Shown here: positions 18,046 to 56,699 of the stretch, piece after piece
Numbering within the stretch: position 1 is the first letter of the stretch
Layout of the letters: each line of letters opens with the position of its first letter
From: Azolla caroliniana
Taxonomy: Eukaryota > Plantae > Polypodiophyta
NCBI GenBank assembly: GCA_043228905.1
Contig: JBHGNT010000007.1
Span: 20,584,001 to 20,648,000, forward strand
Direction: 5' to 3'
DNA: 64,000 nt
Notes under the pieces: generated by a model
Databases searched by the model: none
What the model was told of the DNA's origin: nothing
What the model saw: the letters and a program-made list of their open reading frames with translations, nothing else
Made by a program: the position numbers and the translations under genes

Positions 18046-20800
18046 ATGAATACTCAAATGGGGAGCGCTCTCCCTAGCGAGAAGTTGGATCGCAACAACT
18101 TTGCATCTTGGTTGTACAAGACGCACCAATACCTTGTCGGCCAAGGCTACATCAAAGGAGCACAAGAAAACTGACCCGACCTGGAAGACACCGACTATGC
18201 AACGTGGGAGCAAGCGGCAAGCCGAGTGATGTATTGCTTGGCGACATGTGTTCACGACCTTGTGCTCAGGTACATTCGAGAAGCCGAGACGCCGAAGGAA
18301 GCACGGGAGAATCTACAAAAGTTTTTTGCCGCCAACACAACCGCGAGAAAGCTTCAACTCTGCCAAGAGTTGAACAACATCCAACAAAGGGATAGGTCCA
18401 TCACAAGCTACACCTTGAAGATCAAGGAGCTTTGTGACTCGCTCAGCTCGATAAGCGTCAATGTGGACGATGATGAGATGGTGCAAATATGCGTCGGCGG
18501 CCTTGCACCACGATTCGGCGGGATGAGGACTGCCATACTAGCACGGGAGAATCCACCCTCCTTCTTTGATCTTCAATCCATGTTGTTGGTTGAAGAGAAT
18601 CATGTTCGAACAAGGAACAACGCCTCGGAAGGCCAAATGCTCTACACGCATTCAGACGGAGGAAGAGGACACGACCGTGCAAGAAGAGGCCGATTCACCC
18701 AAGGACGTGGCGGACAAGGCCCGATTTACGAAAACAACTCTCAATTACGGCAACAAGATGGAGGCCATCGAGGAACCTTTGGAAGAAGGGGGAGCCACCA
18801 TTCCGGTTCGAGTCACCAAAACTCGATCGAATGCGGATATTGCGGAAAAATCGGCCATCGCGAAGAAGAGTGCCGAAAGAAGATGCGCGAGTCAGCATCC
18901 ACAAGCGGACAACTCACGAATTACGCCACCAACTCTGAGTACGACGATTACGGCGGACTATTCGTGATGAAACATAGAACAAACTCTATGTTGGCTTCTA
19001 CATCAACTAGTGCCTCCTGTCCGGAAGAAGTATGGTTCGTCGATTCCGGTGCTTCGGACCATATGACGTCCCACCAAGAGTGGTTCCGAGACTTGCGGGA
19101 ACCGGATCAACCCGGTTATGTCGAGACCGGAGACGATACCACTCATCCGATTAGGCATGTCGGGAATGTCCCATTCGGGAAAGATGGCGAACAAACTTGC
19201 ATAAAAAATGTATTACATGTACCCACCATAACGAAGAATTTGGTCTCAGTCGGCCAAATTGTGGAGCAAGGGATGTAAGTTCAATTCAACCAAGGTGGTT
19301 GCTTCATCGAGAAGGAAGGCTGACTCATCACTCGGGGTCGAAAGGAAGGTCAAATGTTTATCCTCGAGTCAAACGAAGTGAAATCGGCCATGTATGCAAA
19401 GGGCCTCAAACCCGACACCAACATAGAGCTATGGCACAAGCGAATTGGCCATATCAACCTTCAAAGCTCAAGGCAATGCAATCGAAAGGAGTCGTCATCG
19501 GACTCCAGACCTTCAAAGAGCAAGAGATTGAAGGCGTATGTGTGGCGTGCCAATTCGGCAAGCAACATCGGCATCCATTTCCGAAGGAGAGGAATGTAAG
19601 CAAAGGCGTACTTGACGTAATTCATTCTGATGTATGGGGACCGGCTCAAACGGCGACATTCGGCGGATGCCGATACTACGTGACCTTCGTCGACGACTTC
19701 TCTAGGCACACTTGGATCTACCCGATGCGGCAAAAGAGCGAAGTGTTCGGACACTTCCAAAAATTCAAGAATGAAGTCGAGAAAGCCATGGGCCGACATG
19801 TACGATGTCTTCGGTCGGATGGAGGCAAGGAATATTTCTTGGATGAGTTTATGGCATATCTAGGGAAAGAAGGAATTTGACGAGAGTTTTCGTGTCGACA
19901 TACGCCACAACAAAACGGAGTGGCCGAACGCAAGAATCGACACATCCTTGAACTGGCACGAGCTATGCTTAACGAAAAGCACATGCTGAAATCGTATTGG
20001 GCGGCATCGGCTAACACATCCGTCTATCTCATGAATCGGTGTACGACATCCGGCGTGCATGAACTCACGCTGCACGAGAAGTTCTATGGAAAGAAGCCGG
20101 ATCTATCACATGTTCGGATATTTGGTTCCATTGCATACATGCACATCCCCGACGAAAAGTGACAAAAGCTCGACCCGAAGTTGGAGAAATGTATCCTCAT
20201 AGGATACTCACTGGAGCAAAAGGGGTACAAGTGCTATAACCCCTTGACTTGGAAAGTTCGAGTAAGTCGAGACGTCGTTTTTGACGAGTCTGCATCCTGA
20301 TATGCACCAGAGACAACTTCGACTCCGATTCCGCTCGACCCGGAATCCGCCGAACAAGAGATAGAGGATGAAGATCGCCTTATGCGCATGTTCGAAGATA
20401 GTCCGATCACGACCCGACTGAGCGGACCACAAGAGCCTCCGAGCGATCAAAGCACATCTCAACTGAGTCCGAAGCTAGACAAAGGGAAGGCCAAAATGCC
20501 AGAGTATGAAGATGATCATTTCGACGACATCGAATCGACTCACTCCCTCGATAGTGAGTTTGAAGGCCTTGACATCCGGACAAATGGAGTGAAGAATGCC
20601 TTAGAATCCGCAAACGAGAAGCTCCGCCGATCCACCCGTGAAAAGAACCCTGCAAGCTACGATGAGTACATGGCGTACCATTATGCATTTATGATGAAGG
20701 TGGCAACAGTACGGGAACTAGAAACCTTTTCCAAAGCCGCGAAGGACCCGCGATGGATCGAAGCAATGAACGAGGAGATGCGTGCATTACACAAGAACGA
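18046..20800 (+). pseudogene. gag-protease-integrase of element D, disrupted
   Basis: CGYCGKIGHREEEC, WFVDSGAS, VIHSDVWGP, AERKNRH; several stops and frameshifts; RT/RNase H continue at 21407-21786 and 30860-32110. Confidence 0.93.
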
Positions 20801-21406
20801 TGTCGCGAAGATGCGCATGCGAGCATGCTTCGCTTGAGCATGACCACCGGGGTCTTGGACCAAGGAGGATGTCCATCAAGGTATTGAGAAGAAGACGATG
20901 TGAATGTAAGATTGGAGGAAGACCTATTAGACTTGAGAAGATTGAAGATTGTACACTTGAGAAGTAGATAAATAATTACAAGATAGATGTGAAGAAGAAG
21001 AAATAGAAGCTCATATTATTGATGGTGATGATGATGGTCATATCATATTGAGCCCCCCCCCTTTACACAAGCCGTACTAGGGGTTTTATAGGTTTGTCCA
21101 TGTAGGAAACCATGGGCTTAAAACCGTGGTTTTGTGTACACGGTTTTGTTCGTTTGTTTCCTACGGAATACTGAATATGAGAAAGAAATATAGAACATCT
21201 AAACCACTTAGTAGTAGCTTTAGTGGTAAGGTAATTGCCTCTTATCTTAGAGGTGCAAGGTTCAAATCCTACTTGCAATCCTCTACATGCACTCAATGCC
21301 ATTGTGACCTAGGTTTATTTATTTTCATTTTTACAAGTATTCGTGAAATGTGTGTGGATCCTCAATTTTTGACTTTTTCTTGCACTAGACATGCTACATC
21401 ATGACA
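20801..21406 (-). mobile_element. Gypsy-type solo LTR in element D
   Basis: TGTC...GACA termini; 4-bp TSD ACGA; D reading frame resumes (KNETWDLV); shares CCAC.GGGGT.TTGGAC motif with the other Gypsy LTRs. Confidence 0.9.
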
Positions 21407-22429
21407 ACGAGACATGGGATCTTGTTCCCCACTCACCGCACAAGAAGACAATTGGCTGTAGATGGATCTAGAAGGTGAAGTATAATGCCGATGGCTTCGT
21501 AAACCGTTACAAAGATCGACTCGGAGCGAAAAGATATGCAAAAACACATGGAGTCGACTATGGGGAAACCTTTGCCCCGGTGGCAAAGATGACGACGGTG
21601 TGGACCGTAATTGCACTCGCAACGGTGAAAGGTGGCACCTCCACCAGATGGACGTCAAGAACGCATTCCTCCAAGGAGAATTAGAAGAGGTGTACATGGT
21701 ACAACTTCTCGGCTTCAAATCACCCATTCATCCAAAAGCCATGTGCCGACTCAAGAAGCCATTGTACGGCCTTGAGCAAGCACCTCTGTCGTGAAAATCC
21801 GTCACTATGTGCGGATCGTGAGGTGGAACCGTCGGGGTTCTGGACTAGAAGGATTTAGTGCAACACGTACAACACAAGCAAGTTTTAAGCATAAGACAAG
21901 TGGGAGAGACAAATCATTTGTTTATTGCAAAAGAAAATCGATTCTTTATAATTTCATAATCTTGTTACAATGGGTTGGGTATGGAAATGAGAGATTAGTT
22001 TTTCAAAGAAAGGAGCCCACAACCATGCAAGGAGTGGTCCGATATGAATACGAGAGATAATTTTTTACAAGAAAGCTCAAGTAAACAAAGCTAAGAGTTT
22101 GATATCAATATGTGAGATAATTTTCTTCTCGAATCCGAGAGGGAAGAAGAAAGAAGGGGAAAAAAGAAGAAGAAAAAAAACTACGAGGGAAAAAATGGGA
22201 CATATATCGAGCTCCTCGTTGATCCTCCTCCCCAATGTTACTTTGCATGCCCACTTTTAGTCGGATGACCTCTATTTTTAGTTGCATGGCCTCTGCTTTT
22301 AGTTGCATGCTTCCATTTTTAGATGCATGCCTTTTTACTTTTAGTTGCATGGCCTTGGCTTTTGGTTGCATGCGATTGTCCGTATAATTCGGCCAAATGA
22401 CACAATCATCCATAAAGTTTAGCCCGTGC

Positions 22430-22830
22430 GCAATCGGTACGTGCGTCACAACCAAACCGTAGACGCGTCAGCGTGCAAAAGTCTCGACCACGTAGTAGTG
22501 TACTCATCCACGCATGCGCACGTCCCGACCGCGCCGTAGTGTACGCATCCACGCGCGCGCGCGTCCAACCTGCACCGTATACGCATCCGCGCACAAAAGT
22601 CTCGTCCGCACCGTAGTGTACGCATCCACGCATGCGCGCGTGCGCACACATGTGTCCGCGCCACACATACACGTCCTTCCGAAACGTCCACGCGTACGTC
22701 CACGCATCCGCACATACGCGTCCATCCGAAACTTGCACACACGTGTACATCCGAAGACGTCCATGCGGGCGTACTTTCGAAAACGTCCACCCGGCCATTT
22801 AGACGCGTGTACGCCGAAAGCGTGCACACC
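22430..22830. repeat. CpG-dense imperfect tandem repeat inside the E LTR (also about 29455-29681 and 30411-30540)
   Basis: Repeated CGTAGTGTACGCATCCACGCATGCGC and CCGAAACGTCCACGCGTAC motifs. Confidence 0.85.
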
Positions 22831-23210
22831 ATATAGTGTAGACCAAGTCACCTTGAACATCCTATGCTCCACACATTGATAGAATGAATATGTTTTGGTT
22901 TCCATTATATATTCTGGGTTCCAATGTTGTCCTATCTATGTGGGATATCTCACAATTTTGTCTTTTCTTTTCTTTTCTTCAAACTTCACACTCACATAAC
23001 TTGATACTTGTTTATCCGTTTTATGCATAGTAAAATACGTTATGAAGCTCTATAACACATCTATCTTTCCATATCCATATATTAAGCTAATCGTAAATAG
23101 TTATTTTACTAGTTTTCATATCGTGTGTGAAAAACCACACGACATTCACCCCCACCAAACCTGCACATCCACCGGTATGTGCCAATTGTGGTGAGGTTCC
23201 TCTTTTTTAA

Positions 23211-26200
23211 TTACTCTTCTTCAACCTCGATGTTCGAGGATACATCATCTAGATTTTCGATCTCAAGATTTGGGGCTTCTCTTCTCTTAAAGATCTTGAT
23301 CCTCTTCCTTGCTATCGGCAAAGCAAGTCGAGTTCTATCCAACTCCGCTAAAAAATAGGTGGCATTGCTTTCTACTTTCTTGACCATATACGGGCCAAAC
23401 CATTGTTTTGCGAACTTTCGAGCAGTGCTATATTGATTATCGAGATTACTATCATAGACAAGAACCCAATCTCCTTCTTCAATTTTTCTTTGTCTAAGAC
23501 GATGCTTTCTATCAAAATTCTCCTTGTTCTTCAATCGAGCTTGGCGCAACCGTTCTATTGCCAACTCGACATCTTCGGGCCTTCGTTCTAATTGTTGAAT
23601 CCTCGTGGCTAGCAAGTCTTCCCGACTCATTTCCTCTTGCCATGGCAAAGACGTCCACGAAGCAACACTTTGCTCAATAGGCATTATTGGTTTTTGTCCT
23701 AATATGAGTTCGGCGGGCATATATCCCGTAGTCGCGCTATGTGTAGTTCTATCTGCCCACAATGCATAAGGTAGTAATTGTGGCCAATTTCCCATCTTGC
23801 CGTCACAAGTCTTTGCTAGAGCTTTTACAATTGGACTATGTCCTCGTTCCTCCTTCCCATTTGCGTCCGGGTTGTATGCCACGGTGAGCGATAATTTGAC
23901 GCCTATTCTTGAAAAGAACTCTTTAGCTTCATTCGCATCTAATTCTCCTCTATCGGCCACTATTTTGCTGACACATCCGTATCGACAAATAACATCTTCA
24001 AGGAGAAACCTACAAACCGCCGAAGTTGTTTTATTCCTTAGCGCCCGTCCTTCTACTTGGTTGGTGAGATCCTTTCTTGCTAGCATGAGATATTTCAATT
24101 GCCCCAATCCCATTGTCATAACCACTATGTCTACCAACCACTTATAATGCATTGATAATGGATATGTCGGATGAAGTTCATCCCTATGTTGAATATTCGA
24201 GTATAATTGGCATTGCTCACATGTTTCAACATAGCTTGCTACATCATTGTAAACATAGCTTGCCACCAATACTTCTCCTTGAGCTTTGCAAATGTTGCCC
24301 ATATTCCACGATGACCTGCCCACACACTATCATGAAATTCAACAATTAGTGTTTGTTGATCTTGTTTCTTGCACACCACTCGAAGTGGAGTTCCATTCTT
24401 TTTCTTCGGAAACTTCCATAGATGTCCTTCTTTGAGGAAGAACTTGTAGGCCTTCTTCCTAATTCGGTAGAAGTCTTCCTTTGACCATGATTCATCTTTT
24501 GTAAGAGAGCTTAAGTATTTGCCAATTTCGATGAATTCACCCTCATAATCTTCTACTTTGAACACTGCTAGCACCCGAGCACAAGAAACCGTAAAGAAGT
24601 TTAGGCCAACATCCTCTTCGTCGGAGTGCAAATCTTCTTCACCCTCATACCTCGCCCTTGACAACATATCGGCCACCACATTATGCTTTCCATTTATATG
24701 CCGAATCTCGGGGTTGAGGGACTTGATATAGGCAATCCATCGCAGCATAGCAATATCCGGTGTAGCAAAACCGGATATCATTCTGAGAATAGGTAGACAG
24801 TCGGTTTCGATTATGACCTCTGTTCCTATAAGGTAGTCATGGTTGGTTTTAACCGCGGATATTATTCCCCATAGCTCTCTCTTTACTTGAGCATACTTCC
24901 TTTGTCTTTTGGTTAACACCTTCGCACCGAATCAGATTGCATACCGATTCTTTTCTTTGTCTTCTTGGTTTATCACCCACCCAATTCCGGTTGGGCTCGC
25001 ATCCACCGTCACATATATCGGGGTACCATCGGTGTAGTCGGCTTTGCGCAATGCTGGAGCTTCCAATAATAGTTTCTTTAGCTTTCGAATCGCGTAGGTA
25101 TGCTCATCTTCCCATTCGAACTTCTTCCTTTTCTTTAATAGTCCATACAATGGTTCAACGACATGGGCATAATGTGGAATCCATATGTGATAGAATGCAC
25201 ATGCTCCCAAGAATCTACGCACCTCCGTTTGAGACACACATTCTTCTTTCATCTCTTGAATAGCGTTCACCTTGGATGGAGATGGTTTCTGGCCATAAGA
25301 CCCACATAAGTGTCCTACTACCAATATTTCTCTCCCGAAACCGTGAGATTCGCATCCTCAAGCTTTTGCAACACCTTCTCGCTATCCTTTATATGATCGA
25401 TGACGAATCTTCGACAACCATCTTCATCTTTCGATTCATCTTTCTTTTCCATCAAGCATCCTTTGATTGGAATGTCATCTAACAAGGGCATTGTGATATC
25501 GGGGATGCAATCCCTCAACACTTTATTCATGGCATTCACCATGTGGGCTACGGAATTTGTTGCACCTTGGGGTAAGGTGCACATCCTTACCAACCCAATC
25601 AGCGTCCTCATTGTCGTTATGTCTCTACTATCGACGACCAATTGAAATTGATCATAACCCGAGTAGAGATCTCCAATGGAATAGATCGATCTTCCCGTGA
25701 AGGCTTCGGCAAATTCATCCACGCTTGGACCAATTCCGGAATTTCGGATCGTCACCTTTTTGACGAGTTGGAGATATTGTATAAAGCGTAAGGACCCGTT
25801 CTTCTTCGGCACCGTAAACCATCTATTAGAGTAGGGAGCATTGGATGGCTCAAGAATTCCCATCCTAACCTTTTCCTTTAGAAGCTCAATCAACTTTGGA
25901 ATGTGAGCTCTTGGAACCGGTATCAGCTTGAGGTTCCAAGGTACATGTGGCACCGTAAAAATCACCATCGGCTCTATTATCTTCGGGTCAGCACATCCGA
26001 TCTCTTGTGGAGAGAAGGCAAAGGCTTTCCCATGTCTCTCAAGCATTCCGCGGAACATTCTCTCCTCTTCAGGGAGAAGGAAATCTTCCCTTCCAACTTG
26101 TAGCTTTCCTTTCGTCTCTTTGGTGAAGACATGAACTATTGCCTTTGGATCCCTTAAGCTCGGATCATTGGCAACTTCTTTCATCTTCTACCAGCTATCT

Positions 26201-28830
26201 TCCGGTAGCGGAACCGCAACTGGCTTGATCTTCTTATCCACCGTTTTATATTTTGTGTTGACTTCAGCTTCCTCCATCAAGATGCCTCGATGATATTCAA
26301 CGATGATAGCATACATGTTGACGGAGTTAACCGAAATCACATTTTGATCGTGAGGGCAGCTCAAGTCCATGACTTCCTCGATTTCACCGATGGTGTCGTT
26401 AAATGAGGCTTCCTCTAGAATATGAGACACAAATTCTTCTTCTTCGATTATGGTTTCTTCTTTCAGCATCTTCTCGAAGTCTTGTATCTTACGCTTGTCC
26501 TTCTTGTTGAGTATTGTTAGTTTACATGCGCCACTAGGTGTCACACATGTTGCTTCTCCTTGCGATCCACTTATTTCGCTTCCTTGTGGGGACTTATGAT
26601 TGCTCGGACTATTTGTGCCCCACGTTTCAATAGTCCGCTCTAAAAATCCGAGGATTCGCCTCCAAGGCTATCTCGGTTCCTTTCGTGATTAGCCCACACC
26701 GTAAGGAATTGAACAAATCTTTGATTGTCAAGGCTCTTGACTCGCGCGAAGGCCGCTCCGTTATCGAACACCTTAGTCTCCATCCGGGACGATGTGATAT
26801 ATGGTTGTCCTAGGATGACGGGATGTGAAGCCAAGTCTTGCACGAAGAAGTGTTGATCCATCTCCACATCTCCGATCGTGACTTTAACATTGGGGCAAGC
26901 TCCATACAGGTCTTCCGTGGCCTTCGTTGCCGCTCATATCTTCCATCCGTGGTTTGTGTTGATTGGCCATCTTTCTTTCTTGTAGAATTAGGTCGACATG
27001 AGGTTGATATCCGAACCATGGTCAATCAAGGCTACCACGGTCTCCTTCTTCTCTCCGATCTTCACCGGCGTCTCTGTTGTCGCTCTTGCCCAATGAGGCC
27101 GAGAGTAATGGCTGTCCGCCATCACTTCTTCTTCCTCCTCCTCTTCGGATCTTGCCATGGTTATGGCACTTGTTTTCACCTCTTCTTCATCCGATTATTT
27201 CCGCTTCCGCTTAATCAAGTCCACGATAGTATCGTGGAACTCCTTCTTAGCAATCCCAAGTAGCTCTCTCAAAGTAAAGTCGACATGACTGTCTAAAACC
27301 TTCTCCTCAAGGACTTTCCGCAAGTTGGTTGTTTGTTCTATGTCCGACCTTAGCTTGTAAGTCGGCGCCACTCGTTCCTTTCCTTCCTTCACAGATTCAT
27401 CGACTTCCATCCGAGAAGGTTGGCTCGATCCACCGGGCTTCATGCTTGTTTCTCCTATCTCTTTTCGTAGCGTAGGTTGGGCTTGTCCTTCTTTCCCTGC
27501 ATTCCTTGTATTGTGACGCTTTGAGGTGCCATCTTCTTCACTGATTCTTTTCCTCTTCTCTTCGACAAGAGCCTCATAGTTGTCGCACACAACCTCCGCA
27601 AAGCTTGTGTTATCGTCGACTAGATCCGACCATCCGGTTACTTGTCGCACATTCCGATCAACATGTTTGAGATCCTCCAAATCTATTTTTCCTTTCTTTT
27701 CACACTCGAATACCGTTGGCCAAAACCCAATTCCCGGCTTGATCGTCTTTAGATTCTCTCTTCCAACTCGTATTCCCGCCGATGCGGCGTAGTGCATGGC
27801 TTCCACATGCCTTGCATCTTCCTCTTCCACGATCTTTTTCAGCCCGCCTCTTCCGAAGTTCACTCGTAGAGGCTTTCGGGTCTCGCTCGAGTGAATCATG
27901 TTGTTGTCCAAATAGACGACATTCTAGCGAATTGCGTCTTGCAAGTCAGTGCACTCCCTTCGTGAGTGCTCGAAGCTGTCGTACCACACACATCTATATG
28001 CTTCTTTTCCCTTTGGCCCGCGTCGACCTAAGTTGGCCAACGATACCGCTTCAAACTTCTTGGAGAGCTCTTCGATTATAGATTCCTCCATCGCTTTCTT
28101 GTCGAAATTGTTGATCGGCTTGTTAGACTCAATTGTCACAGGTGCATTCCTCCTCCACGATTGTGGATTCTCCATATCCGTTTCCTCTTGCCATTGTCGA
28201 CGCTTATCAAGATGGCTACAAGCCTTCTTCACCGCCGCCCAGTCCGCCACCAAGCCATTTGGTTGTGTTTCATCCTCCAAAAAGTTACCCAATTCACACC
28301 GATCTTTGGCATCCACTGCCTTCAGGAATAGTAGGACTTTATCTCCATCGAGAACTCGTTGATCAACACTCGGAAGTCGGTTATACTTCTGGTCGAATTC
28401 GGCATATACTCCAAACGCACACATATTCTTCCCTTTCTTCTCGATCCAAGACATTAGCGTATGTCGAGTCATCCGTGATGCGTCTTCAAGCATGTATTCG
28501 GTGAGAAGCGCCTTTTCGAACTCCGCCCAAGTTGCATGCTCGCTTTGGATTTCCATGATGCGCTCGCGGATCTGTGGTTCCACCACACGTTTGAAGCTAG
28601 AAATTTGTTTGAGATCGTTGACATCCCTTTGTTGCATCTCGTTCCGATAGGTAGCAAGAAGATCCGTGATGTTCTTGCCACCAAATCATCCAGCTATCTC
28701 GACCATACGATCAACAACTTTGTCGATTAAAGCTTCTCGATCTCTCACCTTCAGCATGTATTCCACTATGGACACCATACCTTTCGTTAATTCCTCTCCT
28801 TGAGTTCCGCTTGTTGAAGCCATTGTTGCA
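23211..28830 (-). pseudogene. gag-pro and pol (RT-RNase H-integrase) of element E
   Basis: Protease ALIDHGS, RT PYSNRWF...LLDDIP, RNase H VTVDAS, integrase with WFGPY; Gypsy domain order; stops and frameshifts. Confidence 0.94.
26586..26649 (-). promoter_or_regulatory. Putative -1 ribosomal frameshift signal of E
   Basis: GGATTTTTAG, stem1 CGGACTATT/AATAGTCCG, stem2 GTGGGG/CCCCAC; -1 frame open into the 26188-26544 ORF. Confidence 0.85.
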
Positions 28831-29681
28831 CTTGATATCCTTCCTACCACCTCTTTCACGTCGGGTTCACCACTTAATTATGTCGTGAAAATCCGTCACT
28901 ATGTGTGGATCGTGAGGCGGAACCGCTGCGGTTCTGGACTAGAAGGATTTAGTGCAGCACATACAACACAAGCAAGTTTTAAGCATAAGACAAGTGGGAG
29001 AGACAAATCATTTGTTTATTGCAAAAGAAAATAGATTGTTTATAATTTCAGAATCGTGTTACAATGGGTTGGGTATGGAAATGAGAGATTAGTTTTTCAA
29101 AGAAAGGAGCCCACAACCATGCAAGGAGTGGTCCGATATGAATACGAGAGATAATTTTTTACAAGAAAGCTCAAGTAAACAAAGCTAAGAGTTTGATATC
29201 AATATGTGAGATAATTTTCTTCTCGAATCCAAGAGGGAAGAAGAAAGAAGGGGAAAAAAGAAGAAGAAAAAAAACTAGGAGGGAAAAAATGGGACATATA
29301 TCGAGCTCCTTGTTGATCCTCCTCCCCAATGTTACTTTGCATGCCCACTTTTAGTCGGATGGCCTCTATTTTTAGTTGCATGGCCTTGGCTTTTGGTTGC
29401 ATGCGATTGTCCGTATAATTCGGCCAAATGACACAATCATCCATAAAGTTTAGCCCGTGCGCAATCCGTAGACACGTCAACGTGCAAAAGTCTCGACCAC
29501 GTAGTAGTGTACTCATCCATGCATGCGCACGTCCCGACTGCGCCGTAGTGTACGCATCCACGCGCACGCGCGTCCAACCCGCACCGTATACGCATCCGCG
29601 CAAAAAAGTCTCGTCCGCACCGTAGTGTACGCATCCACGCATGCGCGCGTGCACACACACGTGTCTGCGCCACACATACGC

Positions 29682-30410
29682 TGTCGTGCCTTTCGGCTCC
29701 GGATCGTTTGCGTGAGTCGGGTGGGAACCACTGGGGTTTTGGACTAGGAAGAAGAGAGTTTTAAGGCTAATAAGAATATAAATATGTTGTAAGAAAGAGT
29801 TATAGCAAACTCGTGAATCCCACGAGTGTATTGTATTAGATTAATCAATATGAATATAAGAATATAAACTTCGGTTGAAAGAGAATGATATAGAATTCTC
29901 GTGAATCCCACGAGTATAGTTTATTAATTGGTGTTTTTTAGAAACATATCTAGTTTCCAAATATTTTTCACACATAATTACATTGTGCTCCCCATCCTTA
30001 TGTAGTGATGAGGAAGTCTTAGTAATCCATGCTTTTTCTCTAACTATAGACCCCATGCTTTTCCTATAGATAGACTATATGCTTTATCTAAAGTGATCAT
30101 GCTTTTTTCTAACTTGTGCGTTTTTTATCATGCACGCTAGATGTGTATGTGTAGCTTTTTCTTTTGTTATGCGTTTTTCTAATGTTTATCCTAGCGTGAA
30201 TTTACCTTTCTATGTGGGACATCTATGCTTTAACACTAATGAAATGCTAGTGTAATGGTAAGACATTACATTATTAACATGGAGGTGCAAGGTTCGAATC
30301 TTGCCCTATGCATGTTCAATTTATTTTGCTATTTTCTTCTATTTCTTCATTTTTTATTGAATCTAATACTATATACGTTTTTCACGTAGTGTACAAAATA
30401 CACTACGACA
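29682..30410 (-). mobile_element. Gypsy solo LTR of family H inserted in the 5' LTR of E
   Basis: Near-identical to the LTRs at 39576-40302 and 42367-43093; TSD ACGC. Confidence 0.97.
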
Positions 30411-44370: not shown

Positions 44371-45392
44371 ACATCTAGTCGAATGATTATGTTGTTTTGC
44401 ACACCTCCATCTATTCATTTACGTGATATCTTCCCTCTATCAAGTATATGGCCCACACCTCTCCATGAATCAGGGCACAACCATGGTTGAACCGGTGACC
44501 TATCGGACTACCGCCGATTACTTTACCACTCAGCTATACACCCTCACCGAAAAGAAACATTCCATTGCAATCCACCATTCATTCATGTACATAGATTCCT
44601 GTACATGAAATCTAGACTTCCTTTCGAAAGACCTCAACTCTTAGACTTAGGGCTCAGCCAGGGTTGAACTAGTGACCTATCAGACTTTAGCCGATTGCTG
44701 TAGCACTGAACTTTAAACCCGCGCCCAAAAGAAACATTATGTGGCAAACTTCCATTGACTCATGTAGAAGACATCCAAACGAATTATTATTTCAGTTCGG
44801 ACATCTCCTTGAATCAGAAGGTAGCTGGGGTTCATCGGAGACTTATCATACTTTAACTGATTGGTCTACCACTAAGATATAAATACGGGCCCCTAAAGAA
44901 ATATCATGTCGAAATATCCATTCATGTACATGAAATCTACACTTCTTAGAATTTGGGCTCAACAAGGGTTGAACTAATGATCTATCAGATTGTAGCCAAT
45001 TGCTGTAGCAGTGAAGTTTACACCCGCGCACAAAAGAAACATTTCGTAGCAAACGTCCACTGATTCATATAGAAGAAGTCCACAGTAATTATTACGTCAT
45101 TTCGGACATTTCCTGGAATCTGGAGCTAGGCGGGGTTGAACCGATGACCTATCGTACTACGGCCGATTGATATATCACTTCGATATACACCCCGTCAAAA
45201 AGGAAATATCACGTCGAAATCTCCATTGATTTATCTACAATATATCTAGTCGAATTATTATGTAGTTTTGCACACCTCCATCTATTCATTTATGTGATAT
45301 CTTCATCATCCATTAGGTATATGGCACACAACATCACCTTGAATCAGGGAGAAACCGGGGTTGAACTGATGACCTATCGAACTGCGGCTGAT
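44371..45392 (-). repeat. tRNA-Cys-derived tandem array, left block (about 6 monomers)
   Basis: Same five monomer types and spacers as 51412-56517; ends mid-tRNA at the junction with Gypsy F. Confidence 0.92.
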
Positions 45393-45418
45393 GACCACGA
45401 CTCCTAGAGAAATACGGG

Positions 45419-47229
45419 TTGGACGACGCGCTCCGGCTTTCGAAACGGGACTTCATGGAATGGGTGGAGTCCCCCGGCAAGGGAAGAAACGCGTCGGCAC
45501 TCCCCCGGGAGTTCGAAGAACGCTTTGCGCGCCTTTCGGCGCTTGACCGAACCGTTCTGGATACGAGCCGGGTCCTACTATTCGTCAAGTCGGTGGACGA
45601 GCGGGACCGGGATCAAGTCGGCTCTTTGCTGGAAACCGAAGACGGGCTGACGATCGACTGGGCTGCGGTTAAGAGAGTCTGTGGCCGTTTCGACAAACGG
45701 CGAGAATGGGCTGACAACGGGGCGGCTGGTGCGGGCTCAGTCACAGCAAGGAGGCTTGAACCGGCACCGCAAGGGCGAAGGGAAGAAACCCGGAAATGGC
45801 TAGAAACCGGTCCGGCTTCGACCGGCATGGTCAGTGGCTCGTCCGGAGGAGCAGCGCTGGAGGAGTTGACGCGGGTGATAAAGGATCTCCAGATTGCCCA
45901 GACTCGAAGGGAAGGCGGCGAACCGGCTCGTGACCGACGGCCGGTAGCAGGGAACAGGTGCATGTGGTGCGACGAGGTCGGCCACATCCGGAAGGACTGC
46001 GGCGATTTCGCTGAGGCGTTGAGGAACCGGGTGGTGTACCTGTGGGAAGGCCGGGTGCACGCCAGCAATACCAGAAGGGCCCTAAACCGAAATGACGGGC
46101 GAGGAGATATGAAGAGACTGATGGAAGAGGCAGCGGCCCGACACGTGGAGACCATCCACTACTCGGCGTCGGCCGGCATCCGGGTCGGGGGCAGCGAGGC
46201 CCGAAAGGAGGGCAAAGACGGATTCTGGTCGGCAATGCTGGGAGCTCTTGCCGGCCTACGGCTGAGGAAAGATGAAACGGACCACGTTGAGAGACGGGTC
46301 CGGGAAATAACCGGGTGGAGCGATCCGGTCGAGGAGAAGACGGCCTTCGTAGAAGCCGCCTGCCGGAACTACGAGGCTCTGGTAGAAGACAAACGAGTGG
46401 GGAAAGCCAGAGCGGCCGGACCCTCACAACGGTACGAGACCCGATTCGGGCAACGACGGGACGATGCCGGTGGGTCCAGTTCGCAGGATAACCCCAGGAA
46501 GGGCGGATACCGACTGGGGACGGAAATAGAAAGGACCACGGACCTACGAAAGGTCCTAGAAGAGCGGATCCTCGACAGCAAAGTGGAGCTGTCATTGCGG
46601 GAGGTGCTAGGGATCGCTAAGAAGGAGTTCCACGACTCCATTGTGGACTTGGTGAAGCGGAAGAGGCTGTTGACGGAGACGGAACCGGAAAGGCCGGTGG
46701 AGATGCGGACGACGCACATCGACGATTTGGCGCTGGAAGATGAGTGGGCGGAGAGCCACTATTCGAGGCCACACTGGGCCCGAGCGACCACGGAGACCCC
46801 GGTAAAGATCAGAGAAGTTCAGGAACCGGTGGTGGCATTGGTGGACCACGGTTCGGAATAAACCTGATGTCCATGGACTTCTATAAGAAGGGAAAGTGGC
46901 TGATCAACACCAAGCACGGGTGGAAGATACGGGCGGCGACGCGCGCCACCGAGGAACTGCACGGGGCCTACCCGAACGTGCGAGTCAAGATCGGCGACGT
47001 CGAGATTGACCAGCACTTCTTCGTACAGGAGACGTCCTCGCACCCGGTCATATTAGGGGAACCATACATCACGGCAACGCGAATGGAGACCAAGGTGCTG
47101 GACAACGGTTCGGCCTACGCGAGGGTCAAAAACCAGGACGGGCGCCATTCGGTTCAATTTCTGACGGTGCGGCCAAACCACGAGCGAAACCGCGAATCCC
47201 TCGGTGGCGAGAACCGGGAGGATTTTTAG
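45419..47229 (+). pseudogene. gag: gag-protease ORF1 of F, 5'-truncated, one frameshift about 46858
   Basis: CMWCDEVGHIRKDC knuckle, VALVDHGSE, HPVILGEPY; ends GAT TTT TAG. Confidence 0.9.
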
Positions 47230-47286
47230 AGAGGGCTGTCAAGGCGTGGGGCCAAGATAGCCCGGACACTCGGGAAAGACCCCACG
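47220..47286 (+). promoter_or_regulatory. Putative -1 ribosomal frameshift signal of F (G_GAU_UUU, UAG, pseudoknot)
   Basis: Stem1 GGGCTGTC/GATAGCCC, stem2 CGTGGGG/CCCCACG; -1 frame is open into pol. Confidence 0.85.
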
Positions 47287-50200
47287 ACTGTACGATAGAA
47301 CCGAAACCGAAGATACCTTGCACGATAGGTAGGAAATTTTGCTTCTCCAACGACGGAGGGTGTGTAATGGTCGGCATCGTTGGCCGAGAAAAGGCAAGGG
47401 CGGAGGAGCGACTTCGAGCGTGCGGAGTCCTTGGCCTGGACGAGGAAATCAGCGGAGCCGTGGAGGCGGTCTCCTTCGACGACACCTTGGGAATGCTGAG
47501 GAAGGTAGCTGGAGAAGACCTTAACGAAGACCGGACAATACCGGTATGTTCCGAAGAGATGTACGAAGTCATCGCGGACTTCAGTCAGGGGCTCAGGTCG
47601 GATCGGACGGCCCGAGTTAGCACGAAGTACAAGACTGTGGACCGGAAGGTAAGGCCAGTCGCGGCACCCTTACCGGAGGGCAGCGAGTCCCGGATCAGAG
47701 GGGTTGCGTCGGACCCCAGTTTACGAGATCCGGTCTGCATAGGACACACCTTCACCGACGGAACGCTCCGGGAGCTCAAAATCGGTGGGGGCGGGTTCGT
47801 ACTGCCGGCGGAGGAAGACCGGTTTTGGAGAAGCTCGGAAGGCACGGGAAAGCCTTCGCATTCTCGCCGGAAGAGATCGGGTGCGTAGACCCGACAATCG
47901 TGGACCCGATGGTGATATTCACGGTACCGTATGTACCATGGAATCTCAAGCCGATTCTAGTACCGAGAACTCACATCCCGAAGTTGATGGAGCTATTGAG
48001 GCAGAAAGTCGATATGGGTATTCTCGAATCGTCGAGCGCGCCATACTCGAATCGATGGTTTACCGTACCAAAGAAAAACGGAACATTGCGCTTCATTCAG
48101 GACCTGCAGCCGGTCAACAGAGTGACCATTCGGAACGCAAGAATCGGACCGACCATAGACGAGTTCGCGGAGGCCTTCGCCGGGAGGTCGATTTACTCGG
48201 TCGGCGATCTGTACTCGGGGTACGACCAGTTCCAGCTAGTCGTGGAGAGCAGAGACATTACGACGATGCGAACTCCCCTCGGCCTAGTACGAATGTGTAC
48301 CCTGCCACAAGGAGGGACCAACTCGGTGGCCCACATGGTGAATGCAATGAACAAGGTACTGAGGGATTGCATCCCGGACATCACCATGCCATTTCTAGAC
48401 GACATCCCGATCAAGGGGTGCCCGATGGAAGAGAAGGACGCGACACTCAGACCGGATGGATGCCGGCGATTCGTGGCAGCACACATCGACGACTGCGAGA
48501 AGGTGCTACAAAGGCTAGAGGATGCGAGGCTCACCTTCTCCGGGGAGAAATCGGCCTTCGGGCAATCAGAAATCCTGGTGGTCGGACACCTATGTGGACC
48601 ATATGGCCGGAAGCCGTCTCCGGCAAAAGTAGAAGCCATCTCCGCGATGAAGACCGACTGTAGCTCGGTTACGGAAGTTCGGAGGTTCCTGGGGGCATGC
48701 GCATTCTACCACATATGGATCCCGCACTACGCCCACGTTGCGGAGCCGCTATACGGGTTGCTGAAGAAGGGGCGGAAATTCGAGTGGCGAGACGAGCACA
48801 CGGAGTCGGTCCGGAAGCTGAAGGAAGCTCTTGTGGCAGCACCGGCGCTCCGGAAGGCTGTCTACGAGAAGGGTACCCCGGTATACATAACGGTGGATAC
48901 GAGTTCGACCGGGATCGGATGGGTCTTCAACCAAGAAGACATGAATGGCATTCGGTTCCCGATCCGATTCGGCGCGAAGGTCCTCAGTGAGCGACAACGA
49001 GGGTACGCCCAGGTTAAACGCGAACTCTGGGGTATCGTTTCGGCAGTAAAGGCCTACAAAGACTACCTGATCGGGACGGAGGTGATTATCGAGACGGATT
49101 GCCTGCCAATTCTCGGCATGGTTTTCGGATGCGTGACACCGGACTTGGCAATGCTCAGGTGGATAGCGTACATCAAGTCCCTGGATCGGGAAATACGACA
49201 CATTTCCGGAAAGGACAACGCCATGGCCGACATGCTTTCGAGGGCGAGGTTTGATGACGAGGGCGGCATGGTTTCGGAGGACGAAGAAGTCGGCGTGGAC
49301 TTCTTCGAGGCGGCGTACGTGACGACCGATGGGACGAGCACTCTGGCACTTAACGACTTCGAAGAGAGCAAGTACGACGGCGAGTGGCTCCAGATCGGTG
49401 GATTTTTGAGGACAATGACGCCGGATGCGTCATGGACGAAGGACGAGGCCAACCGGATCCGGAAGAAGGCTTACCGATTCTTTCTCCGGGACGGATACTT
49501 ATGGAAGCACCCGAAGAAGAGGAACGGCGTCCCGCTCCGGGTGGTGGCGATGAAGGAAGAACAGGAGGAGCTGCTGATGGCCTACCACGATAGCCCTTGG
49601 GTCGGACACCGTGGAACCTGGGCCACGTTCGAGAAGATAAAGGGGAAGTACTGGTGGTCGGGACTGTACTGGGACGTGCATCGGTTCGTGACAACTTGCG
49701 AGAGCTGTCAGATGCACTCCATAGTCCGACACCGGGACGAACTTCACCCTACGTACCCTCCGACCATCCACTTCAAATGGATGGTAGACCTGGTGACGAT
49801 GCCGATGGGAGTAGGACAGATGCGGTATCTGGTCCTGGCTCGGGAAGATTTGACGAACCAGGTGGAAGGCCGGGCCCTTCAGAACAAAACGACTGCAGCC
49901 GTATGTCGGTTCCTGCTCGAGAACGTAATATGCCGGTACGGGTGCGTCGGGAAGATCATGGCTGATCGCGGGGAGTTGGACGCCGAAGAGGCCGAGGAGT
50001 TGTTTGACCGGTTAGGGGTCAAGCTCTCGCTTACCACTGCATACAATCCGGAGGCAAATGGAAAGGTGGAACGCGGACATGAACCGATCGTCAAGGCGTT
50101 AGTTCGGGCATGCGGAGGGCAAGTCGGGAACTGGCCACGACTGCTGCCTTACGTGTTGTGGGCTGACCGAACTACGCACAGTTCGGTAACCGGATTCATG

Positions 50201-50722
50201 CCGACAGAGCTCATGTTTGGGCAGAAGCCGGTCATGCCGATGGAACGTACGATCTCCTCATGGGCAACCGTGGACTGGAGAAACGAGATGAGCCGGGAGG
50301 AACTGTTGGTGGCGCGCATACGACAGCTTGAGCGAAGACCGGAGGACGTGGAGCAGGCTGCGGGAAAGCTTCGGGTGGCAAGGACGAGGAACAAAGCCCG
50401 GTTCGACCGGACGCACCGGCTCCGACCGAAGAAGATCGAGGAAGGCGACTGGGTGCTAGTCTATGACAGTAGCCTCGACAACCAGCACCGAGCAACACGG
50501 AAGTTCGCAAGAAGGTGGTTCGGGCCTTACGTGGTACGAAGCGCCAACGACAACGGGACGTACCATCTGGCAGAACTCGACGGCACGAGAATGGCAATAC
50601 CAGTAGTTGGGAAGCGGATCAAAGCGTTCAAGAAGCGTCACGACGACGAGCCGGATCCGGATAACCTGGACCGGGACGACGAACGATCCGAAACCGAAGA
50701 AGAACCGACGGGCGAGGAATAA
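47220..50722 (+). CDS. pol: Pol ORF2 of F (RT-RNase H-integrase), one lesion about 47825; 965-aa open segment
   Basis: RT DLYSGYDQ and PFLDD; RNase H TVDTS; integrase HHCC (YHDSPWVGHRG...CESCQ), DDE core, GPY motif; no chromodomain. Confidence 0.93.
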
Positions 50723-52036
50723 AGGCTGGACCGGTTTTTTCCGTCCCAACTCAATTTGGCGCATGCCGGTGGATGCGCGGTTAGGTGGGGGCGGATGTTG
50801 TGAAGAAAACCGTCCACGAGCGGAATCGGTGCGCCGGAGCATAGGAACCGGCTCTTCATGCACGCACGCCTTACGTTGTACATAGAAGATCCTAGGTAGG
50901 AAGATTCGGTAGGTAAGAAGTTAATAGGAAACGGCTCCCTTCTTGCCTATAAAAGGAGGGAGACGAGGAGGATGAAGGGATCGCGAAGTAAGAGAGGACG
51001 AAGTGCTGTCGGATTGTGGGCCGAAGGCTTCTCTCTCTTCCAAACTCCATAGCTCCTTTCTGTGCAGGTTTCGGGAGGCTCGCGCTGCTCTGAGGAATGC
51101 CTGAGTGCTTCCGGCAGCACCTCCAACCTACTCCTTTCTTTCTGTGCGTTTACGAACAGGCATCGGCATCTGTTCGCCGGCCTGTTCGGTTGTAACCGAC
51201 TTCGTCCTCTTGTTGTTTGTCTTTGTTCATACATACATACATTCGTGTCTCTCTGTGTCGCTGTCCCACTCGCGTCTTTGGGTCGAAGGGCCGTGTCCCT
51301 GTGGATCTATGCTCGCACGTAGTGGGTCTCTTCTCCTTTCTCTCTTGCTCTTCGGTACAGGACCCCCGAGGTCCTGCCTCTTTCTACGCATCCGCGAGGA
51401 ATACCTCGACAACGCACAAAAGAAACATTATGTGGGAAACTTCCATTGACTCATGTAGAAGACGTCCAAACGAATTATTATTTCAGTTTGGACATCTCCT
51501 TGAATCAAAAGGTAGTCGGGGTTAATCAGAGACTTATCATACTTTAACGGATTGGTCTACCACTAAGATATACAGACGGGCCACTAAAGAAATATCACGT
51601 CGAAATATCCATTCATGTACATGAAATCTATACTTCTTAGAATTTGGGCTCAGCAAGGGTTGAACTAATGATCTATCAGATTGTAGCCAATTTTTGTAAC
51701 ACTAAAGTTTACACCCGCACACAAAAGAAACATTTCGTGGCAAACGTCCACTGATTCATATAGAAGAAGTCCACACTAATTAGTAAGTCATTTCGGACAT
51801 TTCCTAGAATCTGGAGCCAGGCGGGGTTGAACCGATTACCTATCGTACTACGGCCGGTTGATCTATCACTTAGATATACATGCTGTCAAAAAGGAAATAT
51901 CATGTCGAAATCTCCATTGATTTATCTACAATACATCTAGTGGAATGATTATGTAGTTTTGCACACATCCATCTATTCATTTACGTGATATCTTCAGCAT
52001 CCATTAGGTATATGGCGCACAACATCTCCTTGAATT

Positions 52037-52108
52037 AGGGCGCAACCGGGGTCGAACCGGTGACCTATCGGACTGCAGCCGATTGCTCTACCACTGAGCT
52101 ATACGCCC
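52037..52108 (-). tRNA. trnC-GCA: tRNA-Cys(GCA)
   Basis: GGGCGTA TA GCTC AGTGGTA GAGC A ATCGG CTGCAGT CCGAT AGGTC ACCGG TTCGACC CCGGT TGCGCCC T: all stems pair, U73 discriminator, intact A and B boxes. Confidence 0.92.
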
Positions 52109-52897
52109 ACGCACAAAAGTGATATTACGTCACAATCTGCCATTCATTCATCTACTAGATATCGAGTCAAATTATTACGAGTTTAGGGAAACTTCCATCG
52201 ATTCATGTACATGACATCTAGACTTTATTTTTAAAGACATCTCAGCTTTGAGACGTACGGCTCAACCGGGGTTGAACTAGTGACCTATCAGACTTTAGTC
52301 GATTGTTGTAGCACTGAACTTTAGACCCATGTGGCAAACGTCCATTGACTCATGTAGAAGACGTCCAAACGAATTATTGTTTCAGTTTGGACATCTCCTT
52401 GAATCAGAAGGTAGCTGAGATTCATTAGAGACTTATCGTACTTGAACCGATTGGTGTACCACTAAGATATACATTCCGGCCACTAAAGAAATATCACGTC
52501 GAAATATCCATTCATGTACATCAAATATACAGTTCATTTCTAAAGGCACCTCACCTCTTAGAATTTGGGCTCAACAAGGGTTGAACTAATGATCTATCAG
52601 ATTGTAGCCAATTGCTGTAGCAGTGAGGTTTACACCCGCGCACAAAAGAAACATTTCGTGGCAAACCTCCACTGATTCATATAGAAGAAGTCCATACTAA
52701 TTATGAAGTCAATTCGGACATCCGATTAATCTAGCACTTAGATATACATCACAAAGAAAAAATCATGTCGAAATCTCCATTGATTTATCTACAAGACATC
52801 TAGTCGAATGATTATCTAGTTTTGCACACCTCCATCTATTCATTTACGTGATATGTTCATTCAATTAGGTATATGGCATACAACATCTCCTTGAATT

Positions 52898-52969
52898 AGG
52901 GCGCAACCGGGGTTGAACCGGTGACCTATCGGACTGCACCCGATTGCTCTACCACTGAGCTATACACCA
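52898..52969 (-). pseudogene. tRNA-Cys(GCA) copy with G1 and position-32 substitutions
   Basis: Same sequence as the intact copies but the first acceptor pair is broken. Confidence 0.75.
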
Positions 52970-54955
52970 TTTATTCATGTATTAGATATATCCATTCGAA
53001 CTATTATGAGATTCCGGATACTTCCATCAATTCACTAACATGAAATCTAGACTTTATTTTGAAAGGCACCGCAGTTTTTAGACGTAGGGCTCAACCAGGA
53101 TTGAACTAGTGACCTATCAGACTTTAGCCGATTGTTGTAGCACTGAACTTTACACCCGCGAACAAAAGAAACATTATGTGGCCAAATTCCATTGACTCAT
53201 GTAGAAGACGTCCAAACGAATTATTATTTTAGTTTGGACATCTCCTTGAATCAGAAGGTAGCTGGGGTTCATCGGAGATTTATCGTATTTCAACCGATTG
53301 GTCTACCACTAAGATATATATCCTCAGCACTAAGGAATTATCACATCGATATATCCATTCATTTGCATGAACTCTACACTTCATTTCGAAAGGCACGTCA
53401 CCTCTTAGAATTTGGGCTCAGCAAGGGTTGAACTAATGATCTATCAGATTGTAGCCAATTTATGTAGCACTGAAGTTTACACCCGCGGACAAAAGAAACA
53501 TTTCGTGGCAAACCTCCACTGATTCATATAGAAGAAGTCCACAATAATTATTACGTCATTTTGGACATTTCCTGGAATCTGGAGCCAGGCGGGGTTGAAC
53601 CGGTGACCTATCGTACTACGGCCGATTGATCTATCACTTAGATATACACCCCGTCAAGAAGGAAATATCACGTCGAAATCTCCATTGATTTATCTACAAT
53701 ACATCTAGTCGAATTATTATGTAGTTTTGCACACCTCCATCTATTCATTTACGTGATATCTTCAGCATCCATTACGTATATGGCACACAACATCTCCCTT
53801 AATCAGGCACAACCGGGGTTGAACTGGTGACCTATCGGACTACTGCCAATTGCTCTACCATTGAGCTATACACCCATGCAAAAAAGAAACATTACGTCAC
53901 AATCCGCCATTCATTCATCTACTAGATATACAGTCCAGTTATTATGAGATTTCAGACACTTCCATCGATTCATGTATATGAAATCTACACTTTATTTTGA
54001 AAAACACCTCAACTCTTAGACGTACGGCTCAGACGGGGTTGACCTAGTGACCTATCAGACTTTAGCCGATTGGTGTAGCACTGAACTTTAGACCCACACA
54101 TAAAAGAAAAATTATGTGGAAAACCTCCATTGACTCATGTAGAAGACGTCCAAACGAATTATTATTTCACTTCGGACATTTCCTTAAATCAGAAGGTAGC
54201 TAGGGTTCATCGGAGACTTATCGTACTTCAACCGTTTGGTCTACCACTAAGATATACATCGCGGCCACTAAAGAAATATCATGTCCAAATATGCATTCAC
54301 GTGCATGACATCTACACTTCATTTCGAAAGGCACCTCACATCTTAGAATTTGGGCTCAGCAAGGGTTGATCTAATGACCTATCAGACTGTAACCAGTTGT
54401 TGTAGCACTAAAGTTTACACCTGCACACAAAAGAAATATTTCGTGGCAAACCTCCACTGATTCCTATAGAAGAAGTCCACATTAATTATTATGTCGTTTC
54501 GGACATTTCTAGGAATCAGGAGGCAATACGGCCGATTGATCTATCACTTAGATATACACCCCATCAAAAAGGAAATATCACGTCGAAATCTCCATTGATT
54601 TATCTACAATACATCTAGTGGAATGATTATGTAGTTTTGCACACCTCCATCTATTCATTTACGTGATATCTTCAACATCCATTACGTATATGGCCGAAAA
54701 GAAACATTTTGTGACAAACCTCCACTGATTCATATAGAAGAAGTCCATACTAATTATGAAGTCAATTCGGACATCCGATTAATCTAGCACTTAGATATAC
54801 ATCACAAAGAAAAAATCATGTCGAAATCTCCATTGATTTATCTACAAGACATCTAGTCCTGACGAACGATTATGTAATTTTGCACACCTCCATCTATTCA
54901 TTTATATGATATGTTCACTCCATTAGGTATATGGCATACAACATCTCCTTTAATC

Positions 54956-55027
54956 AGGGCGCAACCGGGGTTGAACCGGTGACCTATCGGACTGCAGCCG
55001 ATTGCTCTACCACTGAGCTATACACCC
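54956..55027 (-). tRNA. trnC-GCA: tRNA-Cys(GCA)
   Basis: Complete 72-nt cloverleaf, two G-U pairs in the acceptor stem, T loop TTCAACC. Confidence 0.85.
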
Positions 55028-55385
55028 CCGCACCAAAAAAACATCTAGTGGAATGATTATGTAGTTTTGCAAACCTCCATCTATTCATTTACGTGATATC
55101 TTCAGCATCCATTACGTATATGGCCCAAAAGAAACATTTCGTGACAAACCTCCACTGATTCATATAGAAGAATTCCATACTAATTATTAAGTCAATTCGG
55201 ACATCCGATTGATCTAGCACTTAGATATACATCACAAAGAAAATATCATGTCGAAATCTCCATTGATTTATCTACAAGACATCTAGTCCTAACAAACGAT
55301 TATGTAATTTTGCACACCTCCATCTATTCATTTATATGATATGTTCACTCCATTAGGTATATGGCATACAACATCTCCTTTAATC

Positions 55386-55457
55386 AGGGCGCAACCGGGG
55401 TTGAACCGGTGACCTATCAGACTGCAGCCGATTGCTCTACCACTGAGCTATACACCC
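55386..55457 (-). tRNA. trnC-GCA: tRNA-Cys(GCA), one extra G-U pair in the anticodon stem
   Basis: One substitution relative to the copy at 54956-55027. Confidence 0.75.
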
Positions 55458-55815
55458 ATGCACCAAAAAAACATCTAGTGGAATGATTATGTAGTTTTGC
55501 AAACCTCCATCTATTCATTTACGTGATATCTTCAGCATGCATTACGTATATAGCCCAAAAGAAACATTTCGTGACAAACCTCCACTGATTCATATAGAAG
55601 AAGTCCATACTAATTATTAAGTCAATTCAGACATCCGATTGATCTACCACTTAGATATACATCACAAAGAAAATATCACGTCGAAATCTCCATTGATTTA
55701 TCTACAAGCCATCTAGTCCTGACGAATGATTATGTAATTTTGCACACCTCCATCTATTCATTTATATGATATGTTCACTCCATTAGGTATATGGCATACA
55801 ACATCTCCTTTAATC

Positions 55816-55887
55816 AGGGCGCAATTGGGGTTGAACCGGTGACCTATCGGACTGCAACCGATTGCTCTACCACTGAGCTATACACCC
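55816..55887 (-). pseudogene. tRNA-Cys(GCA) pseudogene
   Basis: T stem broken by two mismatches (ACCGG/CAATT). Confidence 0.75.
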
Positions 55888-56627
55888 ACGCACCAAAGAA
55901 ACATTATGTTGCAATCCACCATTCATTCATCTATTAGATATCTAGTTGAATTATTATGAGATTCTGGATACTTCCATCGATTCATGTACATGAAATCTAG
56001 ACTTGATTTTGAAAGGCGCCGCAGTTCTTAGACGTAGGGCTCAGCCAGGATTGAACTAGTGACCTATCAGACTTTAGCCGATTGCTGTAGCACTGAACTT
56101 TACACCCGCGCACAAAAGAAACATTATGTGGCAAACTTCCATTGACTCATGTAGAAGACGTCCAAACGAATTATTATTTTAGTTCGGAGATATCCTTGAA
56201 TCAGAAGGTAGCTGGGGTTCATAGGAGATTTATTGTATTTCAACCCATTGGTCTACCACTAAGATATATATCCCGGCCAGTAAGGAAATATCACATCGAA
56301 ATATCCATTCATTTCCATGAACTCTACACTTCCATCGATTCATGTACATGAAATCTAGACTTGATTTCAAAAGGCACCTCAACTCTTAGACATAGGGCTC
56401 AACCGGGGTTGAACTAGCGACCTATTAGACTATAGCTGATTGTTGTAGCACTAAACTTTACACCTGCGCAAAAGAAACATTACGTGGCAAACCTCCATTG
56501 ACTCGTATAGAAGACGTTGTCGTAGTGTGAATTACACACTATGTGGAATATGTAAAACACTACATCCGATTTAGAGTCCGTATAATAAATAAATAAATAA
56601 AATAAAATATTAAAAATATTTATTACA

Positions 56628-56699
56628 TGCATAGGGTAGGATTCGAACCTTGTACCGCCACATAGACAAACCTCAGGCTTACCACTATACTAGCATACT
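56628..56699 (-). promoter_or_regulatory. tRNA-like Pol III promoter in the LTR of G (homologues at 21210-21275, 30241-30312, 40133-40204, 42924-42995 on +)
   Basis: A box TAGTATAGTGG and B box GGTTCGAATCC at tRNA spacing, followed by oligo-T. Confidence 0.75.

What the first reader, a model, noticed from the sequence alone, without database searches (positions are those of the whole stretch)
20797..56517. All six Gypsy insertions sit on a CpG: 4-bp target site N-CG-N
Seen: target sites are ACGA (20797/21407), CCGC (30860; left copy CCTC, but paralogue B reads CCGC at that position), ACGC (29678/30411), GCGT (39572/43094), ACGC (51412, right flank only) and ACGT (56514, left flank only). They come from five LTR families and four kinds of host sequence. 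The Copia TSDs in the same window (CAGTA, ATACT, ATCAC, GTTTC, GAAAG) contain no CG. Known: plant LTR retrotransposons usually have weak sequence preference, and chromoviruses reach heterochromatin through a chromodomain, which these integrases lack. Inference: the integrase selects CpG, possibly methyl-CpG, giving a DNA-level route into methylated TE nests. Caveat: n=6, and two sites are single flanks.
Basis: partly seen in the sequence, partly recalled or inferred. Interest (0 to 1): 0.85.

Follow-up and report, generated by a model that had tools for sequence, protein, structure and literature searches.

The report
Phygy retrotransposons inserting at CpG
These plant jumping genes do insert on CG pairs, but they most likely belong to the Phygy lineage, whose four-base N-CG-N target was published in 2019; their integrase likely picks the site by bending DNA and touching bases, and whether it also senses methylation is untested.

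Summary
Three insertions have perfect NCGN duplications, one has one mutated side, two have one flank; paralogous empty sites support these last three. In 38 further copies of one family from metagenome contigs, 33 flanks are NCGN (background 4%) and the other 5 are N-TG-N or N-CA-N. But this is published: Neumann et al. 2019 list the Phygy lineage with 4-bp NCGN duplications in 186 elements. The window's elements fit Phygy on duplication, size (8.3 kb), domain order and lack of extra domains; named relatives are from a liverwort, ferns and Physcomitrium. No labelled Phygy sequence was available for a tree. The four coding elements share one gag lineage, so they are one trait, not five. Added here: the motif is V-CG-B (32 of 33), mostly ACGT, the same edge rule as foamy-virus integrase (VYRB), which favours readout of bend and bases. 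Methyl-CpG sensing is neither shown nor excluded: the targets look methylated, but so does the whole nest. This scan noted NCGN duplications before in another genome (e1-10582392, likely fungal; not tested here). Low interest, unless methylation dependence is shown.

The parts
20797..21410 (.). Solo LTR S1 (20801-21406) with 4-bp duplication ACGA, inside Copia B; no coding region, lineage inferred from its ends and duplication
21783..30863 (-). Element C (21787-30859; 8340 bp without the nested solo LTR), gag-pol broken by stops and frameshifts, PBS at the 5' LTR; flanks CCTC / CCGC in a Copia RT gene
29678..30414 (-). Solo LTR of family D (29682-30410) in the 5' LTR of C, duplication ACGC; the sister LTR of C reads ACAC at this site
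39572..43097 (-). Element D (39576-43093, 3518 bp, LTRs 99.7% alike), gag-like ORF only, no pol, so non-autonomous; duplication GCGT in a Copia gene
45395..51415 (+). Element E: 5' LTR and start of gag lost; pol ORF 47621-50722 with RT, RNase H, integrase and weak SH3 match; 3' LTR 50796-51411; right flank ACGC
49508..50719 (+). Integrase of E: zinc-binding, catalytic and SH3-like parts, then a low-confidence acidic tail; no chromodomain found
56514..60389 (+). Element F: left flank ACGT, 5' LTR 56518-57185 related to D, PBS, broken gag-pol, interrupted near 60390 by a Copia element; 3' end not in the window
44366..56513 (-). Tandem array with tRNA-Tyr and tRNA-Cys genes, host of E and F; its units show the empty sites

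Best explanation
The six insertions carry 4-bp target sites centred on CG, and they are most likely copies of Phygy-type Ty3/gypsy retrotransposons whose integrase likely selects V-CG-B by sharply bending the target at a flexible pyrimidine-purine step and contacting bases. Shown: the duplications, the CG enrichment, the V and B edges, one gag-pol lineage for C, D, E and F, no chromodomain match. From print: Phygy has NCGN duplications; 4-bp retroviral intasomes unstack a central YR step and disfavour T first and A last. Inferred: the same geometry acts here, narrowed from YR to CG by added base contacts; D and the solo LTRs were inserted by a related integrase in trans or lost their coding part later; TG and CA centres are mostly later deamination; nesting in other elements follows from CpG-rich retroelement DNA and survival of harmless insertions, without needing a methyl reader.
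For: 33 of 38 unique flanks NCGN against 4.0% background, p 4e-41; the other 5 are TG or CA. 32 of 33 are V-CG-B against 43.8% of 1756 background NCGN, and 14 of 33 are ACGT against 5.7%. Four more insertions seen from the other LTR end and two C-family flanks are all NCGN. Phygy row: 186 elements, 4 bp (100%) NCGN, 7656-9968 bp, tRNA-Trp PBS 81%, no extra domain. C is 8340 bp. Named relatives: Riccia 63% over pol, Physcomitrium patens 32% over gag, Ceratopteris and Adiantum. PFV consensus VYRB with T and A disfavoured at 0 and +3 (PMC4422553); PFV and Ty3 integrases are the closest solved structures. Ginger1 transposases, Gypsy-integrase-like, use CCGG, CCGT or ACGG (PMC2836005). Drosophila ZAM-group elements target CGCG, in a host that lacks CpG methylation (recalled).
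Against: No labelled Phygy sequence could be fetched (Additional files 1 and 3 too large), so membership rests on features and named neighbours, not a tree. TatI also has 4-bp duplications and a tRNA-Trp PBS, though with an extra RNase H not seen here. The tRNA-Trp label of the PBS is recalled. YR flexibility alone predicts TA, TG and CA too, yet TA is 0 of 38 against 6.5%, so an extra contact or methylation must narrow it; no residue was identified and the model is middling (mean pLDDT 66.6, pTM 0.51). At least 20 of 38 flanks hold retroelement sequence and none of 108 ORFs hit a host gene family, which also fits methyl targeting.
Confidence: 0.75

Rival explanations
1. The integrase needs or strongly prefers methylated CpG, which steers new copies into silenced retroelement nests without a chromodomain.
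For: Repeat pairs in the window show CG transitions at 65 of 334 and CHG at 40 of 235 against CHH 47 of 1223, so targets lie in likely methylated DNA. Sister copies of used sites have decayed: ACAC for ACGC. At least 20 of 38 flanks are retroelement DNA. Phygy nests in Tcn1 in P. patens (PMC6911290) and is enriched at centromeres of a liverwort (PMC12885004). C methylation created strong target preferences for an avian retroviral integrase in vitro (as summarised in PMC11054761; the original paper was not held).
Against: No methylation data and no genome background were available, so no enrichment could be measured. Decay after insertion is expected either way. No methyl-binding domain was found in the integrase. 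The V and B edges match a rule known for integrases that are not described as methyl readers.
Confidence: 0.2
2. The integrase accepts any central YR step and CG only looks dominant through small numbers or choice of copies.
For: TG and CA centres are 5 of 38, about their background share of 13.5%. L029 has TG on both sides (GTGG / GTGT), which may be a direct TG target. The 38 flanks come from one family, found by an exact 24-mer, in records of one accession series.
Against: CG is 33 of 38 against 4% and TA is 0 of 38. The L044 flank ACAT sits where the related window LTR reads GCGC (matched by eye over 12 nt). Print gives NCGN for 186 Phygy elements.
Confidence: 0.03

Closest known systems
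Phygy lineage, non-chromovirus Ty3/gypsy (Neumann et al. 2019, PMC6317226)
   Same: 4-bp NCGN duplication, 8.3 kb length, RT-RH-INT order, no chromodomain, no extra RNase H, PBS recalled as tRNA-Trp, relatives in Physcomitrium.
   Different: Described there from P. patens alone; here a more GC-rich host with several families and a gag-only derivative. The V-CG-B edges and ACGT peak are not in the passages read; the per-element table was not seen.
Prototype foamy virus and gammaretroviral intasomes (Serrao et al. 2015, PMC4422553)
   Same: 4-bp duplication, central YR step, T disfavoured first and A last; closest solved structure to this integrase.
   Different: Their preference is weak (YR raised by about 63%); here CG is near obligatory.
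Ginger1 DNA transposons (Bao et al. 2010, PMC2836005)
   Same: Gypsy-like integrase with GPY/F motif, TGT ends, 4-bp duplications CCGG 75% and CCGT or ACGG 24%.
   Different: DNA transposons with inverted repeats in animals; peak CCGG, not ACGT.
Drosophila ZAM and Tirant errantiviruses (PMC5408687)
   Same: Gypsy integrases with a strict CG-rich 4-bp target.
   Different: Target CGCG has a central GC; different lineage and LTR ends.
TatI lineage (PMC6317226)
   Same: 4-bp duplication, tRNA-Trp PBS, similar length.
   Different: Carries an extra archaeal-type RNase H (100%), not found here; no NCGN motif reported.

Membership tests
Phygy | 4-bp duplication with NCGN motif | tested here: met
   3 perfect, 1 imperfect, 2 one-sided in the window; 33 of 38 extra flanks
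Phygy | Length 7656-9968 bp, coding region filling the interior | tested here: met
   C is 8340 bp with gag-pol from 28823 to 23211; only C is whole and autonomous-type
Phygy | No chromodomain, no extra RNase H, no extra ORF | tested here: met
   Pfam shows RT, RNase H, integrase, weak SH3 only; integrase stop lies 67-74 bp from the LTR in C and E; no such family in the domain lists of relatives
Phygy | PBS for tRNA-Trp | tested here: inconclusive
   One shared PBS in C, D and F; its assignment to tRNA-Trp is recalled, no call confirmed it
Phygy | Placement in the Phygy clade on RT-RH-INT trees | not testable with these tools
   Reference FASTA too large to read; only indirect: P. patens, Riccia and fern relatives
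TatI | Extra archaeal-type RNase H | tested here: not met
   No second RNase H in the pol of E or C and no room after integrase
Chromoviruses (Tcn1 and others) | Chromodomain at the integrase end; mostly 5-bp duplication | tested here: not met
Methyl-CpG-guided integrase (proposed) | Preference for methylated over unmethylated CpG | not testable with these tools
   No methylome, no genome; decay signature cannot separate used from unused CpGs

The most novel reading that the evidence does not exclude
Phygy-type integrases read methyl-CpG directly in the bent target, a DNA-level way into silenced chromatin that replaces the chromodomain, and the same habit may join plant Phygy, Ginger1 and the fungal elements noted elsewhere in this scan.
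Probability: 0.2. Interest if true: 0.7.

Novelty: already known. Interest (0 to 1): 0.17.

Why it matters
As it stands it extends a published lineage trait to another genome and sharpens the motif to V-CG-B. It would matter if methylation were read: that would be a retrotransposon integrase using an epigenetic mark on DNA itself to find safe sites, a claim my searches did not find in print for Phygy, and it is testable with one simple assay.

Tried and rejected
No genome is held for the window, so no genome-wide logo. A PBS pattern in viral contigs found 0. The first read lay over 29400-31000 was too crowded to count flanks; the second showed only the best rows, 40 hidden, so it gives a peak and no fraction. 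The Atlas held neither protein tried. Kitamura 1992 was not held; PMC4776186 only cites it. GingerRoot (PMC6839031) has 6-bp duplications with no motif, not relevant. PMC7466625 gave no target-site data in the passages found. No paper held all terms for methyl-CpG targeting by a retrotransposon integrase. A first decay count with several alignments per pair was inflated and was replaced by best alignments only. Earlier-finding look-ups by sequence and by relatives gave nothing. Rejected: five independent families; the Copia sites as a strong control; a link of E to tRNA-gene targeting on one event.

Full report
Observation. Self-comparison and Pfam resolve a nest of Copia and Gypsy elements and a tRNA-Tyr/Cys array. 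Three Gypsy-type insertions have perfect NCGN duplications: solo LTR S1 (ACGA), the solo LTR of family D (ACGC) and element D (GCGT). Element C has CCTC left and CCGC right; 3 of 4 close Copia paralogues read CCGC at this place, one reads CCAA. E and F show one flank each. For F, 5 of 14 listed array paralogues read ACGT and 1 ACAT, the other 8 being a second unit type; for E, 3 of the 4 closest read GCG-. With CG at 5.2% of window dinucleotides, 6 of 6 has p about 2e-8, post hoc.

Independence. C, D, E and F match the same gag relatives, and C, E and F the same pol. D and F share LTR ends. D has no pol, so it needed an integrase in trans or lost it. S1 has no coding part and is assigned by its ends and 4-bp duplication only. 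The six events therefore test one lineage. The Copia control is weak: 3 of 5 duplications were confirmed on both sides, and no CG in five 5-mers is expected about a third of the time (hand arithmetic).

Larger sample. No genome is held. An exact 24-mer of the D LTR end found 52 metagenome loci. I dropped 11 where the flank is the element's own PBS side and merged 3 duplicate pairs, leaving 38. 33 of 38 are NCGN against 4.0% in the same flanks (p 4e-41); 3 are N-CA-N and 2 N-TG-N (5 of 5 against 14%, p 6e-5). Four more insertions seen from the other LTR end (L004, L019, L033, L043) and two C-family flanks (L027, L047) are all NCGN; L002 has ACGT on both sides and L029 has GTGG and GTGT. In 3 of 21 listed runs laid on the D junction, loose ends peak at the C of the CG (31, 23 and 12 contigs), apart from the PBS-side group; 40 rows were hidden. 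Limits: one family, an exact-match filter that favours less decayed copies, and records of one accession series.

Finer motif. 32 of 33 are V-CG-B against 43.8% of background NCGN, and ACGT is 14 of 33 against 5.7%. TA centres are 0 of 38 against 6.5%.

What the elements are. Pol order is RT, RNase H, integrase; gag carries DUF4100. Named relatives are Riccia (63% over pol), Adiantum and Ceratopteris and Physcomitrium patens (32% over gag); the closest hits (up to 81% over pol) are unnamed. The host is thus likely a seed-free land plant (inference). C is 8340 bp; C, D and F share one PBS, recalled as tRNA-Trp. The integrase ends in a weak SH3 match and an acidic tail, with no chromodomain; the model is middling (pLDDT 66.6), and its closest solved structures are PFV and Ty3 integrases.

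What is in print. Neumann et al. 2019 (PMC6317226; passages; Additional file 5 whole) state that Phygy elements have an insertion preference for NCGN, and list 186 elements with 4-bp NCGN duplications, 7656-9968 bp, tRNA-Trp PBS and no extra domain. Additional files 1 and 3 were too large to read; they may already hold the edge bias and would settle membership. Jedlicka et al. 2019 (PMC6911290; passages) report mostly 4-bp duplications for Phygy, GC-rich centres in 4-bp sites and Phygy nested in Tcn1. A liverwort genome paper (PMC12885004; passages) finds Phygy and reports it enriched at centromeres. So the headline is known.

Mechanism. Serrao et al. 2015 (PMC4422553; passages) give the PFV site as VYRB, with the central YR step unstacked in a sharp bend and T and A disfavoured at the edges in all four 4-bp viruses. 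V-CG-B is that rule with YR narrowed to CG. I infer the same geometry plus added base contacts; no residue was identified. Strict CG-rich targets also occur in Ginger1 (PMC2836005; passages; lead from e1-10582392) and the ZAM group (PMC5408687; passages).

Methylation. Seven repeat pairs in the window show transitions at 65 of 334 CG, 40 of 235 CHG and 47 of 1223 CHH positions, the mark of a likely methylated nest. 17 of 38 flanks match window elements and 3 more hit retroelement domains; none of 108 of 135 flank ORFs scanned, from 31 loci, hit a host gene family. This fits methyl targeting, but also CpG-rich retroelement DNA and selection, and there is no genome background. A review (PMC11054761; passage) says C methylation created strong target preferences for an avian retroviral integrase in vitro; the original was not held. 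Searches showed no test of methyl sensing for Phygy; subscription papers are not covered.

Verdict. Real, strong and already known as a Phygy trait. Membership about 0.85, sequence-and-shape readout with membership about 0.75, methyl dependence about 0.2. Its data were not tested here. Interest 0.17.

Noticed in passing
window 44366-56513: Tandem array with 7 tRNA genes called (2 Tyr, 5 Cys) among decayed units, inside a retroelement nest; it shows CG and CHG decay.
   Followed up: partly
window 51412-51415: The target of E lies directly at the 5' end of a tRNA-like unit of the array; one event, F lies elsewhere in the unit.
   Followed up: partly
window 39576-43093: Young gag-only element with a 713-aa frame whose last part has no family match; its family is very abundant in the laid runs.
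   Followed up: partly
window 60690-61484: An 800-bp stretch matches its own reverse complement at 87.5%, within a Copia LTR region; GAAAGTG occurs at 60385, 60614 and 61511.
   Followed up: no
window 6820-7400: LTR-like start after CAGTA with no partner LTR found in the window.
   Followed up: partly
L002:10-80: Both ends of the D-family LTR lie within about 71 bp with ACGT on each side: a tiny derivative or an assembly collapse.
   Followed up: no
L029:1497-2206: Solo LTR with GTGG and GTGT flanks: a possible direct insertion at TG, or two decays.
   Followed up: no
L044, L027, L022: D-family copies inserted into the LTR or pol of related Gypsy elements, so the lineage nests in itself.
   Followed up: partly
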